From positions 1-13,930 of IMG/VR virus record IMGVR_UViG_3300015157_000063: a stretch of DNA of 13,930 nt. One strand, given 5' to 3'. Positions within the stretch are counted from its first letter, which is position 1, and every line of letters starts with the position of its first letter. Shown here piece by piece: positions 23-7,411 of this stretch. The notes beneath the pieces are model-generated. The model was not told the origin of the DNA. It ran no database searches and saw nothing but the letters and a program-made list of their open reading frames with translations. Both the position numbers and the translations under genes were made by a program. This DNA comes from a virus. Lineage: Duplodnaviria > Heunggongvirae > Uroviricota > Caudoviricetes.

Positions 23-148
23 TTAAAAACGATATCCTGCTGAGAACATAAACACCCACGGATCGAGGCGTACGCTATCGTGTTGCTGTGCACCGCCCAG
101 CTTATAATTGGCGGTGGTATCGATATCCATGTACCACACTGGTAGGTT
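23..148 (-). pseudogene. C-terminal remnant of a Lom/Ail/PagC-family outer-membrane protein (41 codons, in-frame TGA immediately upstream)
   Basis: Minus-strand frame reads NLPVWYMDIDTTANYKLGGAQQHDSVRLDPWVFMFSAGYRF then stop; ends in the GYRF aromatic C-terminal beta-strand typical of Lom/Ail barrels. Not in the ORF track because it is under 60 aa. Confidence 0.3.
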
Positions 149-686: not shown

Positions 687-823
687 AACCGCAGCACGTT
701 CCTGCATACGACGTGTCTGCGGCATAATCCCAATGATTACTCCCTGACAGGATTTGCAGGCCACTCAATATCAGGTACAGTTGATGTATCAACACGATTC
801 AACAATACCCGATATTTATTCCA
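687..823. repeat. direct repeat copy A (~137 bp; tfa 3' end plus hairpin)
   Basis: Near-identical by eye to 1737..1872 (aaccgcagcacgtt...cataatcccaatgattactccctgacagg...ccactcaatatcagg.cagttgatgtatcaacacg.ttca...); one indel inside the hairpin loop. Confidence 0.8.
689..722 (-). terminator. hairpin just downstream of the tfa-fragment stop (copy A of the repeat)
   Basis: Inverted repeat CCGCAGCACG ... CGTGTCTGCGG directly 3' of the stop at 737-739, followed on the minus strand by a T-containing tract. Confidence 0.4.
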
Positions 824-1006
824 TGCCTCCAGCAACGATCTTTCTTCCTCCGTTGCGATTTCCAGATCTACAGCATCCTGCAGTGGCGCAATATACTCAC
901 TGAATTCCTGGATGTGGAACTGTGTGGTGACGGTCTTCCAGTCATTCGGCTCCTGCTGTATCGAAGCATACCAGGCTATTTCAATATCGCTATGCTGCGG
1001 CAGCAT
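737..1006 (-). pseudogene. tfa: tail fibre assembly protein (Tfa) C-terminal fragment, 5'-truncated
   Basis: Translation ...[54 protein letters not shown] aligns with the C-terminus of the Tfa at 3691..4218 (...[45 protein letters not shown]). Only about half a Tfa is present; the upstream part is replaced by the methyltransferase gene. Confidence 0.6.
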
Positions 1007-1872: not shown

Positions 1873-2136
1873 GGCTTCCACCACCAGCACGACAAGATGC
1901 CGCATACAGTGAACCAGTCAGTCCAGTTTTCAGACAACCAGTGCGTCACCTTTTTGAAGGCGCTTTAAAGCACGTTTTAATCCAGGTCGGCCTGTCCTTG
2001 TTCCGCTTAATTTATCTTCAAATATTTGTTCATATCCTGCACAAACAAGAGCGTTTCGTTGCAGATCTGTATTCTGGTCATTTGTTGATACCCTTACATA
2101 GCCAATCAGCACGCTGAATCTCCCGTCCAAAAGCAC
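1786..2136 (-). pseudogene. pin: Din-family serine DNA invertase (Pin/Gin/Hin-like), inactivated: two nonsense codons, 3' deletion, fused to a tfa 3' remnant
   Basis: ORF 1930..2136 (GTG start) encodes ...LIGYVRVSTNDQNTDLQRNALVCAGYEQIFEDKLSGTRTGRPGLKRALKRLQKGDALVV then stops where family members read VVWKLDRLGRS. In-frame continuation reads stop-KLD-stop-LVHCMRHL..., i.e. TGG->TGA and CGA->TGA. After about codon 85 the frame runs into Tfa C-terminal codons. Confidence 0.8.
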
Positions 2137-2166
2137 AAATCATGCCATGCAGGCCAGAAACCGCCA

Positions 2167-2192
2167 TTATCTAAAACCTCGGTTTACGAGAA
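2167..2192. other. gix/hix-like 26-bp invertase crossover site (right of pin)
   Basis: TTATCTAAAACC-TC-GGTTTACGAGAA; close match to the Gin/Hin crossover site as recalled from memory, and inverted relative to the site at 5248..5273. Confidence 0.7.
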
Positions 2193-3125
2193 CTCGGCAC
2201 AAGCGGGGAGAAAATACCGTTACTCAGTACAGCGAATACCTGGACTAATCGACAAACATTCAGCGGTGGCCTTTCTGGTGAACTATCCGGCAATGCTTCT
2301 ACAGCTGCAAAATTAAAAACTGCCAGGAAAATAAGCAATGTGGTTTTTGATGGTTCCTCCGATATCACATTAAAAGCAAGTCATGTTGGTGCGTTTGCCT
2401 TAGGGAAAACAGGAAGCACCGTTGCGAATGATAAAGCAGTTGGATGGAACTGGAGTAGCGGAGCCTATAACGCAACTATTAGTGGTGCATCAACGTTAAT
2501 TATTCATTTTTATATGGGAGAAGGAAGTTGTCCTGCAGCTCAGTTTCGGATTAATTATAAAAATGGCGGTATTTTTTATCGTTCAGCCCGTGATGGTTAT
2601 GGTTTTGAAGCCGACTGGTCCGAATTTTACACCACCACCAGAAAACCTTCAGCAGGAGATGTTGGTGCACTGCCGTTATCTGGTGGTCAACTGAATGGTG
2701 CACTGGGTATCGGAACATCCAGTGCTCTTGGCGGTAATTCGATTGTATTGGGTGATAATGACACGGGCTTTAAACAAAATGGCGATGGTAATCTGGATGT
2801 TTATGCTAATAACGTCCATGTTATGCGCTTTGTCTCCGGAAGCATTCAAAGTAATAAAACCATAAATATTACAGGGCGTGTTAACCCCTCGGATTACGGT
2901 AACTTTGATTCCCGTTATGTGAAAGATGTTCGACTTGGTTCACAGCAATATTATGGAGTGAACAACTGGCAAACATGGAATTTCCGGTGCCCTTCAGGTC
3001 ATGTATTGTCTGGTATTAATGTTCAGGATACAGGGTCTAACTCTGCCGATAATATAGCGGGCGTTTATTACAGACCCGTTCAAAAGTATATAAATGGCAC
3101 CTGGTATAATGTAGCGAGCGTTTAA
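2175..3125 (+). CDS. alternative tail-fibre C-terminal cassette (stf' variable part), start-less, expressed only after inversion
   Basis: Open in frame from the crossover site (ORF track 2340..3125 is the downstream part). Translation [62 protein letters not shown]... ends with ...[17 protein letters not shown], sharing the [20 protein letters not shown] and QKYI.G.WYNV motifs with the stf at 4234..5892. Confidence 0.7.
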
Positions 3126-3126
3126 T

Positions 3127-3660
3127 ATGATGCACTTAAAGAACATAAAAGCGGGTAATGCTAAAACACTGGAACAGTATGAGTTAACAAAGAAACACGG
3201 AGTTATCTGGCTTTACTCTGAGGACGGAAAAAACTGGTATGAGGAAGTGAAAAACTTTCAGCCAGACACCATAAAGATTGTTTACGATGAAAATAATATT
3301 ATTGTTGCCATAACCAAAGATGCCTCCACACTTAACCCTGAAGGTTATAGCGTCGTTGAGATTCCTGATATTACCGCCAACCGGCGTGCTGACGACTCAG
3401 GTAAATGGATGTTTAAAGATGGCGCAGTCATTAAACGTGTATATACCGAAGAAGAGTTGCGCCTACAGACGGAAAACCAGAAAAAAATATTATTACAGCA
3501 GGCCAGAGAAAAAACGCAGTTCTGGCAAACACAGCTTACTTTGGGGATTATCACTGATTCAGACAGACAGCAACTGATGAACTGGATGCGATACGTGCAA
3601 CAGGTTGAGACAACTGATACCTCGGTTCTTCCTGTAACATTCCCGGAACCACCAGAATAA
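3127..3660 (+). CDS. tfa: tail fibre assembly protein, alternative copy (tfa')
   Basis: 177 aa; [44 protein letters not shown]... is a paralogue of the minus-strand Tfa ([44 protein letters not shown]...). Start overlaps the stf' stop. Confidence 0.85.
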
Positions 3661-3663
3661 GAA

Positions 3664-3681
3664 AAGGCCCGTACGGGCCTT
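3664..3681. terminator. perfect palindrome between the convergent tfa' and tfa genes (bidirectional terminator candidate)
   Basis: AAGGCCCGTACGGGCCTT lies in the 30-bp gap between the two stop codons. Confidence 0.5.
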
Positions 3682-3690
3682 AATTTGTTG

Positions 3691-4218
3691 TTATTCTGGT
3701 TTCTGTGGCCATTCAGGCTTTGCAGTATCCACACGGCTGACCATAACGCTGTAGCGTTCCCATGATTCCAGTCGTGTGCGTTCCTCATCAGTTGCCATAT
3801 TCAGTCTGACAGCACGTTCCAGCGGTTGAATCACAGACTCCGCTTCGGAAAGCAAAGCGGCTTTTTGTAACTCTGCCTGCTGTTGCAGTTCCTGTTTTGT
3901 ATATTCCCGCTTTACTACTTTACCATCCAGAAACTTCCAGTTTCCCGAGATATCGGCGCGACGGTTGGCTGTTATATTCGGTAACTCAACAACACTTAAC
4001 CCGTCAGGGTTAAGTGTTGATACGTCTTTCTCAATACAACGAATAATCCCCTTCTGGTCATAAGCTATTTTTAAAGTATCATCCTGAAAGTTTTTTAATT
4101 CGTCATACCAGTTTTTACCGTCTTCTGTATATAGCCAGATAACGCCAGCTTTTTTCGTAAGCTGATACTGCTCAATGGTTTTGGGGTTTCCGGCGGTAAT
4201 ATTTTTCAGATGTTGCAT
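3691..4218 (-). CDS. tfa: tail fibre assembly protein Tfa
   Basis: 175 aa, lambda Tfa / Mu U-like; AGGAGA Shine-Dalgarno upstream; immediately downstream of stf. Confidence 0.9.
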
Positions 4219-4233
4219 ATATTCTCCTGATGG

Positions 4234-5892
4234 CTATGCCTGTTCAACGTTATACCAGTTACCAGAAATGTATTTTTGTAGTGGTCGTGACACCATCCAG
4301 TCATCTCCATCAACCTCACCAATAATTTGCAATCCTGTTGTCACATGACCATTACCTGGTTCGCAAAGTCCTCCGCGATATAATGTGTCAGAACGTCTGC
4401 CTCCCAGACGCACATTTCTGATAAAAGAACTATTCAGGTAATCATTTAAGTTTGAACCCCAGCACCCACCAAATATATTTCCATCGGTGTTATAACGGAC
4501 GCCACCCGCAATAAGAGCACCCGGTGAAATAAAGGATTTATCGTTCGGGTTAAAATACCATAAAGCATCATTACCTCCATCGCCACGCATATGAATACAT
4601 GGAACCGGAAATCCATACTGTTCTGTCAGTAAATACCCAAAGCTGACCGCGCCGGGATAGCCCTGTCCATTGCGAATGGACAAGCCCTTAACTATCGGCA
4701 CGTAATGACCACCAGGAGTGGGATTCCAGGCAAACTGCGTCTGAACAAAAGGCGCGGTGGCATTATTCAACTGGTCTGCAAATGCGCCACTTCCATCAGG
4801 AATTATTCCCTGATGAATATATGCAACCCGCTTATAAAAATCAGCAGATGCGGGTTGAAGCCCAAATGCCAGTTGTCCATTTGAATAGAATAAAAGGACA
4901 CCGTCGCCGCCCTGTTTAATACCAGTGTCGTTATCTCCGAGAGTAATGGAATTACCGCCCAGTGCGTTATCTGTACCAAGCGCCAGCCCACCATCAATTT
5001 TGGCCCCGTGGCTGACAGATATAGCACCTGTTCTCAGATTTATAGCGAATGGCCTTAATGGGCCGATATCACCGTTTTCGCCTTGTCCTTCAGCCGTCGG
5101 AATGAAATGAAGAAAATCTTCTGAACGACGGAAAATAAGACCGAAGGCATCATTGAAAATTCGCAGCGCATTCACCGTGCCAATTTTCAGTTCTCCGGTC
5201 ATTTTATCGCCGGAACGCTGAACGGCGTTACCAGCCTTGTTTACCGTTTCCTGTAAACCGAGGTATTCGATAACGGCGGCAACGGTCGATTTCGCAAGAA
5301 TATCCCGCCCAACTTTTGTCAGGGTTGCCAGACTGGCAACATCATTCCCCGTAAAATACGGAAACCTGTCTGCCGCAGTAGCAAGCCCGGCCAGCGCCGT
5401 CAGGGTGGCATCTTTCGGTTGCTTACCCGCAAGCGCGTTAGTCATGGTGGTCGCAAAATTCGGGTCGTTGCCCAACGCCGCAGCCAGCTCGTTCAGCGTA
5501 TTCAGTGCGTCAGGCGACGAGTCCACGAGGGCAGCGATCGCAGCCATAACATAAGCCGTGCTTGCGATTTGGGTATTATTCGTTCCCTGTCGCGCAGTTG
5601 GTGTTGTTGGCGTTCCGGTCAGTGCAGGACTATTTAAGGGCGCTTTCTTGTTCGTTTCACCCATTACCGCCTTAACCGCTTTTGGCGTTGCCGCCAGTGA
5701 CTCGGAAGTGCTGTTGGTCGCACTGCTGAGCTGTACTATCCCCTTTTTCGTCGTGCTCGCATCCTCCAGCGCCACGGCGGATGCAATATCCTCTGACCGC
5801 CATATTGTCCAGGTACAGGTTCTGGCCGTTGCGCCACCAGTCATCCTCGCGATGAAAATCCGGCATATCAATTCCCGCCAGATGGTATGCAT
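4234..5892 (-). CDS. stf: side tail fibre protein (lambda Stf-like), 5'-truncated; Stf-homologous part is about 4234..5800
   Basis: ...EDIASAVALEDASTTKKGIVQLSSATNSTSESLAATPKAVKAVMGETNKKAPLNSPALTGTPTTPTA...NTLNELAAALGNDPNFATTMTNALAGKQPK... matches the middle region of lambda Stf as recalled. The first ~30 codons of the ORF are K-gene sequence read out of frame. Confidence 0.85.
   Translation of the reverse strand: MHTIWRELICRIFIARMTGGATARTCTWTIWRSEDIASAVALEDASTTKKGIVQLSSATNSTSESLAATPKAVKAVMGETNKKAPLNSPALTGTPTTPTARQGTNNTQIASTAYVMAAIAALVDSSPDALNTLNELAAALGNDPNFATTMTNALAGKQPKDATLTALAGLATAADRFPYFTGNDVASLATLTKVGRDILAKSTVAAVIEYLGLQETVNKAGNAVQRSGDKMTGELKIGTVNALRIFNDAFGLIFRRSEDFLHFIPTAEGQGENGDIGPLRPFAINLRTGAISVSHGAKIDGGLALGTDNALGGNSITLGDNDTGIKQGGDGVLLFYSNGQLAFGLQPASADFYKRVAYIHQGIIPDGSGAFADQLNNATAPFVQTQFAWNPTPGGHYVPIVKGLSIRNGQGYPGAVSFGYLLTEQYGFPVPCIHMRGDGGNDALWYFNPNDKSFISPGALIAGGVRYNTDGNIFGGCWGSNLNDYLNSSFIRNVRLGGRRSDTLYRGGLCEPGNGHVTTGLQIIGEVDGDDWMVSRPLQKYISGNWYNVEQA
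5248..5273. other. gix/hix-like 26-bp crossover site inside stf at the constant/variable boundary
   Basis: TTCCTGTAAACC-GA-GGTATTCGATAA; its reverse complement matches 2167..2192 at 22 of 26 positions; lies at stf codons ~207-215 (VIEYLGLQE). Confidence 0.7.
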
Positions 5893-6271
5893 CCCGGAAC
5901 AGCGTGTAACAGTCCGTCACCCCGTGCTCAAAGCGCCGTCCTGTCAGATGTGGCACACAGCGGAATTTATGAATTTCCCCCCGGCAGACCAGCCACCAGG
6001 GCAGTGCGCTTTTTATCTGCAGCCGCCGGTCAGCCTCGCTCAGCCAGGGCAGCTCACCGGGATGACTGTGGACCAGTGCCACAATCTCCCCCTGCATCTC
6101 TGCCCGCAGCCAGTCTTCCGGTGCGATACGAAAATACGCCTCCGGCTCTGCGGAAATATTCACACAAGGGATATACCGCTCCCCCTCCGGCGTGCTTATC
6201 ACGAAGCCGCACGACTCCGCAGGCGCACACCGCCGGGCATGCGCCAGAATCGCTGATTCAGTCTGTGTCAT
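5672..6271 (-). pseudogene. K: tail-tip assembly protein K (JAB/MPN + NlpC/P60), homologous only over 5804..6271, 3' end replaced
   Basis: MTQTESAILAHARRCAPAESCGFVISTPEGERY...VALVHSHPGELPWLSEADRRLQ...DCYTLFRDAYHLAGIDMPDFHREDDWWRNGQNLYLDN matches lambda K; after codon ~156 the frame reads unrelated sequence that is stf in another frame. Confidence 0.8.
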
Positions 6272-6281
6272 AAACCGGGAT

Positions 6282-6980
6282 TTACTGCGAAAGTTTATTA
6301 ATGGAAAGGAAACCGCCAAAATTGCCGACATTCCTGCGCAGTTCACACCCGCGCATGCACTTGCTGCATCTGTCCTTACGGATATCCGTGGTGGGTTTAT
6401 CGAACTCATCCGCCACAGCCCCGCCCGTGTAACCACACTCATCAGAGCGGTAGGTCCACATACAGGTGTTCGCCAGCATGATACGACCGGGAAACTGCGC
6501 TCCGTCCGTCTCGGTCGGTGTGGCCAGCACAAACGAGGCCGTCATGGCTGTCAGCTGCGACATCTGCTCCACCACCCAGCGGTCGCTCAGCTCCTGCTCC
6601 GGGTCCGCTTCCGGATTGCCCGCCACAAAATTCACCGCATCCAGAAAACGGGCATACACCCGGCGGCGGACCACCGTGGCCCCCACCAGACTCTGCAGGT
6701 CTTCCGCCATCCCGGTGACAAGGCCGAACAGATTGGACACCGTCAGCGACGGTCTGGCACTGCTGCCTTTCCCGTTCATTTCAAAGCCGCTGCCATCAAT
6801 CGGGTACGCCTCATACTTACGCCCCTGCCAGGTGACCGGCTCCCCTTTTTCATTCAGCTCATTACAGAAAAAATACCGCTCACCGCCCTGTACCGTCAGG
6901 TCGATTTCCCAGAGTACCACCCGCGGTGACTGCTCTGATTTAACCGACTCGTTCAGACTTTCTTCGTGAATATCCTGCAT
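6282..6980 (-). CDS. L: minor tail protein L
   Basis: 232 aa; MQDIHEESLNE...VVLWEIDLT..GGERYFFCNE.NEKGEPVTWQGR.Y..YPI.GSGFE.NGKG...GNFGGFLSINKLSQ is near-colinear with lambda L. Confidence 0.9.
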   Translation of the reverse strand: MQDIHEESLNESVKSEQSPRVVLWEIDLTVQGGERYFFCNELNEKGEPVTWQGRKYEAYPIDGSGFEMNGKGSSARPSLTVSNLFGLVTGMAEDLQSLVGATVVRRRVYARFLDAVNFVAGNPEADPEQELSDRWVVEQMSQLTAMTASFVLATPTETDGAQFPGRIMLANTCMWTYRSDECGYTGGAVADEFDKPTTDIRKDRCSKCMRGCELRRNVGNFGGFLSINKLSQ

Positions 6981-7321
6981 CAGTTCACCACCTGCTCAAT
7001 CGTACAACTGAAATCACTGTACCTGGCGTTATCTGTGACGCTCCACTCCCGGCATACCACCCTCACCGTCCGGTTATGTTTCGGCGGTCGCCACAAAAAG
7101 GCACGGTAACCACCATGCCACGATAAAAACTCTTCCAGCCATCGCCGGGTCGCCTCATCCGTCACCCGGAACACCGCCTGAAACGTCTTCAGTCGGGCAT
7201 TAAGTCCCGTCGGGCGGCGCTGTTCATAACCGTCACCAAACCGTACCCTCGCCACCGACGGTTTCTCACTCACCTGCATCCCTTCACGCGGGACCAGATG
7301 CAGCGTTTTTATCTCAGCCAC
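6980..7321 (-). CDS. M: minor tail protein M
   Basis: 113 aa, GTG start; ...VRFGDGYEQRRPTGLNARLKT......FLWRPP...EQVVN resembles lambda M; overlaps the L start. Confidence 0.85.
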   Translation of the reverse strand: MAEIKTLHLVPREGMQVSEKPSVARVRFGDGYEQRRPTGLNARLKTFQAVFRVTDEATRRWLEEFLSWHGGYRAFLWRPPKHNRTVRVVCREWSVTDNARYSDFSCTIEQVVN

Positions 7322-7411
7322 TCAGCATTCCTCCGTCACGTCGCATGGACAGCATCACCGCCTGCACCCGCTGGTCAATCAGTTGCACAAGGCTGCCCGC
7401 AGCTTCCGGCC

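What the first reader, a model, noticed from the sequence alone, without database searches (positions are those of the whole stretch)
5672..6271. Deletion scar fusing tail-tip gene K to the middle of stf
K homology stops at codon ~156 (...NLYLDN, about position 5804) and within a few bases lambda Stf homology begins in another frame (EDIASAVALED..., from about 5800). In lambda the intervening genes are the rest of K, I, J, lom and the first third of stf, so several kb including the central tail fibre gene J appear to have been lost at one junction.
Basis: partly seen in the sequence, partly recalled or inferred. Interest (0 to 1): 0.45.

Follow-up and report, generated by a model that had tools for sequence, protein, structure and literature searches.

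The report
Deletion scar in defective ompW prophage
A decaying lambda-like prophage of E. coli has lost about 6.8 kb of tail genes in a single cut-and-join event that butts the front of tail-tip gene K against the back half of the side-tail-fibre gene; this is real but ordinary prophage decay.

Summary
Genes lie on the minus strand. Identity to intact tail-tip gene K runs from 7415 down to 5794. Identity to intact side-tail-fibre gene stf runs from 5795 downwards. The two parents share only the dinucleotide TG (5794-5795).

K keeps 159 of 247 codons, then reads 40 out-of-frame stf codons to a stop at 5672. Its JAB domain survives and its NlpC/P60 domain is lost. stf keeps codons 449-968 of 968. 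The missing genes are the K 3' end, I, J, lom and the stf 5' 46%. That is 6,825 bp against strain EC958 net of an IS, or 6,073 bp in lambda coordinates.

No I, J or lom homologue remains in the window or in the whole prophage of two carrier genomes. The element is a prophage integrated at ompW (PPompW), a type reported as always defective.

The junction occurs in 3 of 5,426 complete E. coli genomes, and the exact chimeric K' protein on 27 contigs. RefSeq already marks both genes as incomplete pseudogenes in two of the three genomes. The same three genomes carry a second scar at 7413-7415, where the capsid gene joins the tape-measure 3' end.

Best explanation: one illegitimate-recombination deletion inherited by a small lineage. 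Interest is low.

The parts
5795..6271 (-). K' : first 159 codons of tail-tip assembly gene K (247 codons when intact). The Prok-JAB domain is retained and the NlpC/P60 domain is lost.
   Evidence: 159-aa prefix identical to Ecol_316 K. Pfam finds only Prok-JAB in the window copy, against JAB + NLPC_P60 in the intact copy. PGAP: 'C40 family peptidase, incomplete, missing C-terminus'.
5672..5794 (-). Out-of-frame tail of the K' ORF: 40 codons read from stf DNA in the wrong frame, then a stop.
   Evidence: Translation. The tail matches an out-of-frame translation of lambda stf DNA.
5794..5795 (.). Deletion junction. The 2-bp microhomology TG is shared by both parental sequences. It sits within a 10-bp stretch (5790-5799) where the parents agree at 7 of 10 positions.
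   Evidence: Three-way base alignment of the window with stf parents (EC958, EC21Z-078) and K parents (Ecol_316, EC958).
4234..5795 (-). stf' : 3' part of the side-tail-fibre gene (codons 449-968 of 968). The N-terminal 448 codons are missing.
   Evidence: tblastn of the 968-aa EC958 Stf matches residues 448-968 at 99.2%. Phage_fiber_2 repeat found. PGAP: 'phage tail protein, missing N-terminus'. In DLI.5a PGAP calls it a 513-aa CDS from an internal GTG at 5775.
3691..4218 (-). Tail fibre assembly gene (tfa) downstream of stf'. Intact.
   Evidence: ORF. Annotated as tail fiber assembly protein WP_001164137.1 in the matching genomes.
6282..6980 (-). Minor tail protein L. Intact.
   Evidence: Pfam Phage_tail_L, E = 1.4e-92.
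6980..7321 (-). Minor tail protein M. Intact.
   Evidence: Pfam Phage_min_tail, E = 8.2e-29.
7314..7415 (-). Last ~100 nt of the tape-measure gene (H'), a remnant of the second deletion.
   Evidence: 100% identity to the 3' end of the Ecol_316 tape-measure gene, ending at 7415. PGAP pseudogene.
7413..7415 (.). Second deletion junction, with 3-bp microhomology TAT. The truncated protease-capsid gene is joined to the 3' end of the tape-measure gene.
   Evidence: Base alignment. Present in the same three complete genomes.
7413..9016 (-). Prohead protease-major capsid fusion gene. About 111 C-terminal codons are missing.
   Evidence: Pfam Peptidase_S78 + Phage_capsid, with the capsid profile covered only to position 186 of 280. 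The intact gene is 1,938 nt in Ecol_316. PGAP: 'missing C-terminus'.

Best explanation
The window is the late region of a defective lambda-like prophage integrated at the E. coli ompW locus (PPompW type). One illegitimate-recombination event joined K after codon 159 to stf codon 449. It used only 2 bp of shared sequence (TG) and deleted about 6.8 kb.

The deleted genes are the K 3' end, I, J, lom and the stf 5' 46%. Because the two frames differ, no K-Stf fusion protein is made. K' ends after 40 nonsense codons. The stf remnant has no native start codon.

The prophage therefore cannot build a tail tip. With the second deletion at 7413-7415 it also lacks the capsid C-terminus, portal, connector, tail tube and tape measure.

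Shown: the breakpoints, the gene content lost and the shared inheritance. Inferred: the molecular route. Candidates are replication slippage, microhomology-assisted end joining or a gyrase-type illegitimate exchange.
For: - Breakpoint mapped to TG 5794-5795 against intact relatives.
- Intact K-I-J-lom-stf order at the same locus in EC958 and Ecol_316.
- Deletion size is 9,411 bp in EC958 coordinates. Subtracting a 2,586-bp ISEc12 insertion gives 6,825 bp. The lambda equivalent is 14607-20679.
- No I, J or lom remains in the window or in the whole prophage of TOE17 and AST46.
- K' has lost the NlpC/P60 domain.
- No IS and no invertase-site similarity at the breakpoints: 13-14 of 27 matches against a random mean of 12.9.
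- Identical junction in 3 of 5,426 complete genomes, from Hong Kong sediment, Myanmar and Japan. All three share flanking alleles and the second junction.
- The exact K' protein occurs on 27 contigs.
- PPompWs are reported to be universally degraded by deletions and IS insertions (PMC8112680).
Against: - Two bp of microhomology is weak evidence for any particular mechanism. By my own calculation with P(k) = (k+1)(1/4)^k(3/4)^2, about 16% of random joins show 2 bp or more.
- No single genome examined is the exact parent. The K side is 100% identical to Ecol_316 but only 95% to EC958. The stf side matches EC958 and EC21Z-078 but not Ecol_316. The deletion size is therefore an estimate from a mosaic of relatives.
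- The order of the two deletions is unknown, and so is whether they arose together.
Confidence: 0.95

Rival explanations
1. Assembly or chimeric-contig artefact: the K and stf sequences are not adjacent in the real genome.
For: Lambdoid tail genes are repeated, with a median of 3 places per genome. Such repeats can mislead assemblers.
Against: The identical junction is found at 100% identity across 1 kb in three complete genomes from different laboratories and countries. The same is true of the second junction. The exact K' protein occurs on 27 contigs from several sources.
Confidence: 0.01
2. Site-specific deletion catalysed by the Pin/Gin-type invertase that flips the neighbouring tail-fibre segment, acting on a pseudo-site in K.
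For: An invertible segment with 27-bp gix-like inverted repeats (2161-2187 and 5253-5279) lies only ~520 bp from the junction. It has flipped in AST46.
Against: The parental sequences within 40 bp either side of both breakpoints match the 27-bp site at only 13-14 positions. Random 81-mers of the window average 12.9. The junction lies outside the repeats. The local invertase gene is a ~60-codon stump.
Confidence: 0.02
3. IS-mediated deletion. An IS in the lom/J region (relatives carry ISEc12 in lom) generated an adjacent deletion, or two IS copies recombined.
For: EC958 carries ISEc12 in lom and Ecol_316 carries ISEc10 in the portal gene. IS-mediated deletions are reported in PPompWs (PMC8112680).
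Against: No IS sequence or IS end remains at the junction. Window bases switch directly from stf to K within 2 bp. IS-mediated adjacent deletions and IS-IS recombination leave an IS copy behind.
Confidence: 0.02
4. A natural, functional variant: a mosaic phage whose tail tip uses a short K and an N-terminally short fibre instead of J.
For: In DLI.5a PGAP calls the stf remnant an intact 513-aa CDS. L, M and tfa are intact.
Against: - K is cut inside its NlpC/P60 domain and runs into out-of-frame stf codons.
- The K cluster members listed are mostly 247 aa.
- I, J, tape measure, tail tube and portal are all missing.
- The sequences either side are 99.6-100% identical to full-length genes, so the cut is recent rather than an evolved architecture.
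Confidence: 0.01

Closest known systems
PPompW, the lambda-like prophage integrated at ompW in E. coli (Nakamura et al. 2021, PMC8112680)
   Same: - Same integration site. An ompW' fragment lies at window 23-148, by mapping the annotated ompW' fragment of the TOE17 locus onto the window.
- Same late-gene order and near-identical sequence to PPompWs of EC958, Ecol_316 and the O145:H28 PPompW records.
- Like the described PPompWs it is defective through deletions.
   Different: This K::stf breakpoint and the capsid::tape-measure breakpoint are specific to a small lineage, 3 of 5,426 complete genomes. Other PPompWs carry other lesions, for example terS::J in EC21Z-078, and IS21-family insertions in EC958 and Ecol_316.
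Cryptic lambdoid prophages of E. coli K-12 (Qin, Rac, DLP12), in which internal deletions have joined remote late genes (own knowledge)
   Same: Internal deletions of morphogenesis genes leave truncated stf/tfa/pin modules next to unrelated late-gene fragments.
   Different: Different integration site, different breakpoints, and a younger scar. The flanks here are still 99.6-100% identical to intact genes.
Phage lambda K-I-J-lom-stf region (NC_001416)
   Same: Collinear and ~80% identical at DNA level on both sides of the junction. Window 6999-5797 matches lambda 13410-14606. Window 5795-5258 matches lambda 20680-21216.
   Different: Lambda has the 6,073 bp between those points, and the window has none of it.

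Membership tests
Lambda gpK family (tail tip assembly protein, JAB + NlpC/P60, 'C40 family peptidase') | N-terminal Prok-JAB/MPN domain | tested here: met
   PF14464, E = 9e-16, residues 3-105.
Lambda gpK family (tail tip assembly protein, JAB + NlpC/P60, 'C40 family peptidase') | C-terminal NlpC/P60 domain and full length of ~247 aa | tested here: not met
   There is no PF00877 hit in the window copy. The intact Ecol_316 K has one at residues 111-224. Only 159 native residues remain. The window copy is a pseudogene of the family, not a functional member.
Lambda Stf-type side tail fibre | N-terminal 'prophage tail fiber N-terminal' domain that anchors the fibre to the tail | tested here: not met
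   Residues 1-448 of the 968-aa relative have no counterpart in the window.
Lambda Stf-type side tail fibre | Phage_fiber_2 repeat, distal receptor-binding part and downstream Tfa chaperone gene | tested here: met
   PF03406, E = 1.9e-18. Residues 448-968 match at 99.2%. An intact tfa lies at 3691-4218.
Illegitimate (short- or no-homology) deletion | No extended homology between the parental sequences at the breakpoints; at most a few bp of microhomology | tested here: met
   2-bp TG overlap. The parents agree at 7 of 10 positions around it and are unrelated beyond.
Illegitimate (short- or no-homology) deletion | No mobile-element end or site-specific recombination site at the junction | tested here: met
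   The sequence switches directly from stf to K. gix-like site similarity is at background level.
PPompW defective prophage | Integration at ompW with lambda-like late genes | tested here: met
   The window maps to the ompW'...int-ompW interval of TOE17 at 99.98% identity.

The most novel reading that the evidence does not exclude
The truncated stf'-tfa module with its invertible segment may still be kept in use. The segment has flipped since the deletion, driven by an invertase encoded elsewhere. The module could act as a reservoir of receptor-binding domains that superinfecting lambdoid phages pick up by recombination, or it could be expressed from an internal start. In that case the position of the scar, just upstream of the Phage_fiber_2 repeat, would be selectively tolerated rather than purely accidental.
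Probability: 0.07. Interest if true: 0.35.

Novelty: already known. Interest (0 to 1): 0.08.

Why it matters
It matters little beyond annotation. The scar shows that this prophage cannot make tails or heads, and that the K and stf ORFs should be treated as pseudogenes. The 552-aa ORF from this junction is deposited as a 'Baseplate wedge protein' of a Caudoviricetes MAG. That suggests such fragments can be mistaken for viral genomes.

The two precisely mapped junctions, with 2-bp and 3-bp microhomology, are clean markers for a small E. coli lineage. They are also a small data point on how lambdoid prophages decay.

Tried and rejected
1. Assembly artefact. Rejected: three complete genomes and 27 contigs share the junction.
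2. I/J relocated within the prophage. Rejected: tblastn found none in the window or in the 41-kb loci of TOE17 and AST46.
3. A naturally short K. Rejected: relatives are 247 aa with an NlpC/P60 domain.
4. Invertase-mediated deletion. Rejected: there is no gix-like site at either parental breakpoint.
5. IS-mediated deletion. Rejected: no IS remnant at the junction.
6. Ecol_316 as a single parent for both sides. This failed. Its stf distal part is a different module with no match to window 4234-5799. EC958 was used for the deletion size, and EC958 and EC21Z-078 for the stf-side alignment.
7. Identifying the window's source genome. None of the three complete genomes is identical. TOE17 differs at 3 positions, DLI.5a at 2 positions over 10.7 kb, and AST46 has the segment inverted.
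8. A literature search for this specific junction found only the general PPompW description.

Full report
**What is in the window.** The window carries the late region of a lambda-like prophage, with nearly all genes on the minus strand. Reading from high to low coordinates, the genes are:
- lysis genes, an HNH endonuclease, terS and terL (9080-10741)
- a prohead protease-capsid fusion ORF (7412-9016)
- M (6980-7321) and L (6282-6980)
- a K-like ORF (start 6271) and a Stf-like ORF (to 4234)
- tfa, then an oppositely oriented tfa and stf C-terminal cassette
- a stump of an invertase gene and a methyltransferase gene

Pfam confirms Phage_min_tail, Phage_tail_L, Prok-JAB, Phage_fiber_2, and Peptidase_S78 + Phage_capsid.

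**Where it comes from.** The whole window is 99.98% identical to E. coli TOE17, lying between a remnant of ompW and an integrase next to intact ompW. It is therefore a prophage at the ompW locus, the PPompW type. Nakamura et al. found PPompW in 44% of 767 complete E. coli genomes. They reported that all copies appear defective through deletions, IS insertions and gene inactivation (PMC8112680).

**Checking the observation.** I searched window 5300-6300 against 5,426 complete E. coli genomes.
- Only three genomes cover the whole query, all at 100% identity: DLI.5a, TOE17 and AST46.
- The other listed hits match only from window 5794 upwards, under genes annotated 'C40 family peptidase' and L.
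- A search with 4900-5900 gave the mirror image. Many genomes match 4900-5799 under a 'prophage tail fiber N-terminal domain-containing protein' and stop there.
- Phage records behave likewise, with K-L-M-H identity starting at 5790-5800.

Base-level alignment places the crossover. The stf-parent sequence (EC958, EC21Z-078) is followed up to 5795. The K-parent sequence (Ecol_316 at 100%, EC958 at 95%) is followed from 5794. The bases at 5792-5793 are stf-specific and the base at 5796 is K-specific. The exchange therefore lies in the shared TG at 5794-5795. Around it the parents read CCTCTGCCCG and CCGGTGACCG, agreeing at 7 of 10 positions.

**Consequences for the two genes.**
- K retains 159 of 247 codons (...NLYLDNMAV). 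It then reads 40 codons of stf DNA out of frame to a stop at 5672.
- That out-of-frame tail matches an out-of-frame translation of lambda stf.
- Pfam finds only the JAB domain in K'. The NlpC/P60 domain, at residues 111-224 of the intact protein, no longer scores.
- The intact Stf of EC958 is 968 aa. The window holds residues 449-968 at 99.2% identity.
- The two reading frames differ, so there is no fusion protein.
- An ATG at 5892 inside K DNA opens a 552-aa ORF whose first 32 residues are out-of-frame K. In DLI.5a PGAP instead calls a 513-aa CDS from GTG 5775.
- In TOE17 and AST46 PGAP marks both K and stf as incomplete pseudogenes.

**What was lost.** EC958 carries the full K-I-J-lom-stf series at the same locus, with ISEc12 inserted in lom. 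Ecol_316 carries K-I-J-lom with a different distal stf.
- In EC958 locus coordinates the missing interval is 14897-24307, which is 9,411 bp.
- Subtracting the 2,586-bp IS and its target duplication gives 6,825 bp. The IS was mapped against the uninterrupted lom of EC21Z-078.
- Against lambda the join is 14606 | 20680, a gap of 6,073 bp. That gap covers the K 3' end, I, J, lom and the first 343 codons of stf.
- tblastn with EC958 I and J, the EC958 lom fragment and EC21Z-078 lom finds nothing in the window. It also finds nothing in the 41-kb loci of TOE17 and AST46.

**Mechanism.** The parents share no homology beyond 2 bp. No IS end sits at the join. The 27-bp gix-like repeats of the adjacent invertible segment have no counterpart at either breakpoint: 13-14 of 27 matches against a random mean of 12.9.

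This is the signature of illegitimate recombination. The exact route is inferred, not shown. It could be slippage, microhomology-assisted end joining or a gyrase-type exchange. By my own calculation, 2 bp or more of microhomology arises in about 16% of random joins. The TG alone therefore says little.

**A second scar.** A second junction lies at 7413-7415 with 3-bp microhomology (TAT). It joins the protease-capsid gene to the last ~100 nt of the tape-measure gene.
- The capsid gene lacks about 111 C-terminal codons.
- In Ecol_316 coordinates the gap is 11,677 bp, including an ISEc10.
- The gap covers the portal, connector, tail tube, chaperones and nearly all of the tape measure.
- The same three genomes carry this junction.

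**Inheritance.** The three carriers share flanking trp-region protein alleles and the terL allele. They have diverged since:
- AST46 and DLI.5a have an ISKpn26 next to yciE, which is not annotated at that site in TOE17.
- TOE17 and AST46 differ in the early region of the prophage.
- AST46 has the tail-fibre segment inverted.

The exact 199-aa K' protein is recorded on 27 contigs. A single ancestral event inherited by a small lineage is the simplest reading. Other PPompWs carry different lesions, for example a terS::J join in EC21Z-078.

**Verdict.** The observation and its interpretation are both right, with minor corrections to the breakpoint and to the share of stf lost. The feature is an ordinary deletion scar in a prophage type already known to be degraded. 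Public annotation already marks K as a pseudogene in all three carriers, and stf in two of them. Interest is low.

Noticed in passing
window 7413-7415 (context 7314-9016): A second deletion scar with 3-bp microhomology TAT. The protease-capsid fusion gene has lost ~111 C-terminal codons and joins the last ~100 nt of the tape-measure gene. About 11.7 kb is missing relative to Ecol_316, including an ISEc10. The lost genes are portal, connectors, tail tube, chaperones and tape measure. It occurs in the same three complete genomes as the K::stf scar.
   Followed up: yes
window 2161-5279 (inverted repeats 2161-2187 and 5253-5279): A ~3.1-kb invertible tail-fibre segment holds the stf distal part, tfa, and an opposed tfa and stf C-terminal cassette. 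It is bounded by 27-bp gix-like inverted repeats. It lies in the opposite orientation in strain AST46, which is otherwise almost identical. The adjacent invertase gene (1930-2136, minus strand) is only a ~60-codon stump, so inversion must be driven by an invertase encoded elsewhere.
   Followed up: partly
window 687-834 and 1737-1883, flanking 1063-1731: Two ~148-bp direct repeats (~88% identical) of tail-fibre-assembly gene fragments flank a class I SAM-dependent methyltransferase gene on the plus strand. It looks like a cargo gene inserted among tfa remnants at the prophage end.
   Followed up: no
L003 (E. coli EC21Z-078) 15060-17341: The same ompW prophage in another strain carries a different large deletion that joins terS to the C-terminal part of J. 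Independent deletion scars therefore arise in this prophage type.
   Followed up: partly
L005 (lambda NC_001416) 1134-1615, i.e. genome 14133-14614: Relative to this 247-aa K, the lambda reference sequence encodes the first 45 residues in a different frame from the rest. Lambda K is annotated as only 199 aa, starting at 14276. This is either a frameshift or an annotation issue in the reference.
   Followed up: no
window 4237-5892 (minus strand): The exact 552-aa ORF that starts in out-of-frame K DNA and runs into stf' is deposited as DAL01957.1 'MAG TPA: Baseplate wedge protein [Caudoviricetes sp.]'. This defective prophage fragment has apparently been catalogued as a viral metagenome-assembled genome.
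   Followed up: no
window 7412-9016 and L002 21753-28507: In this phage type the prohead protease and major capsid protein are one fused gene (645 aa when intact). It lies directly after terL, with the portal gene downstream of it. That order differs from the HK97 order as I recall it (terL, portal, protease, capsid).
   Followed up: no
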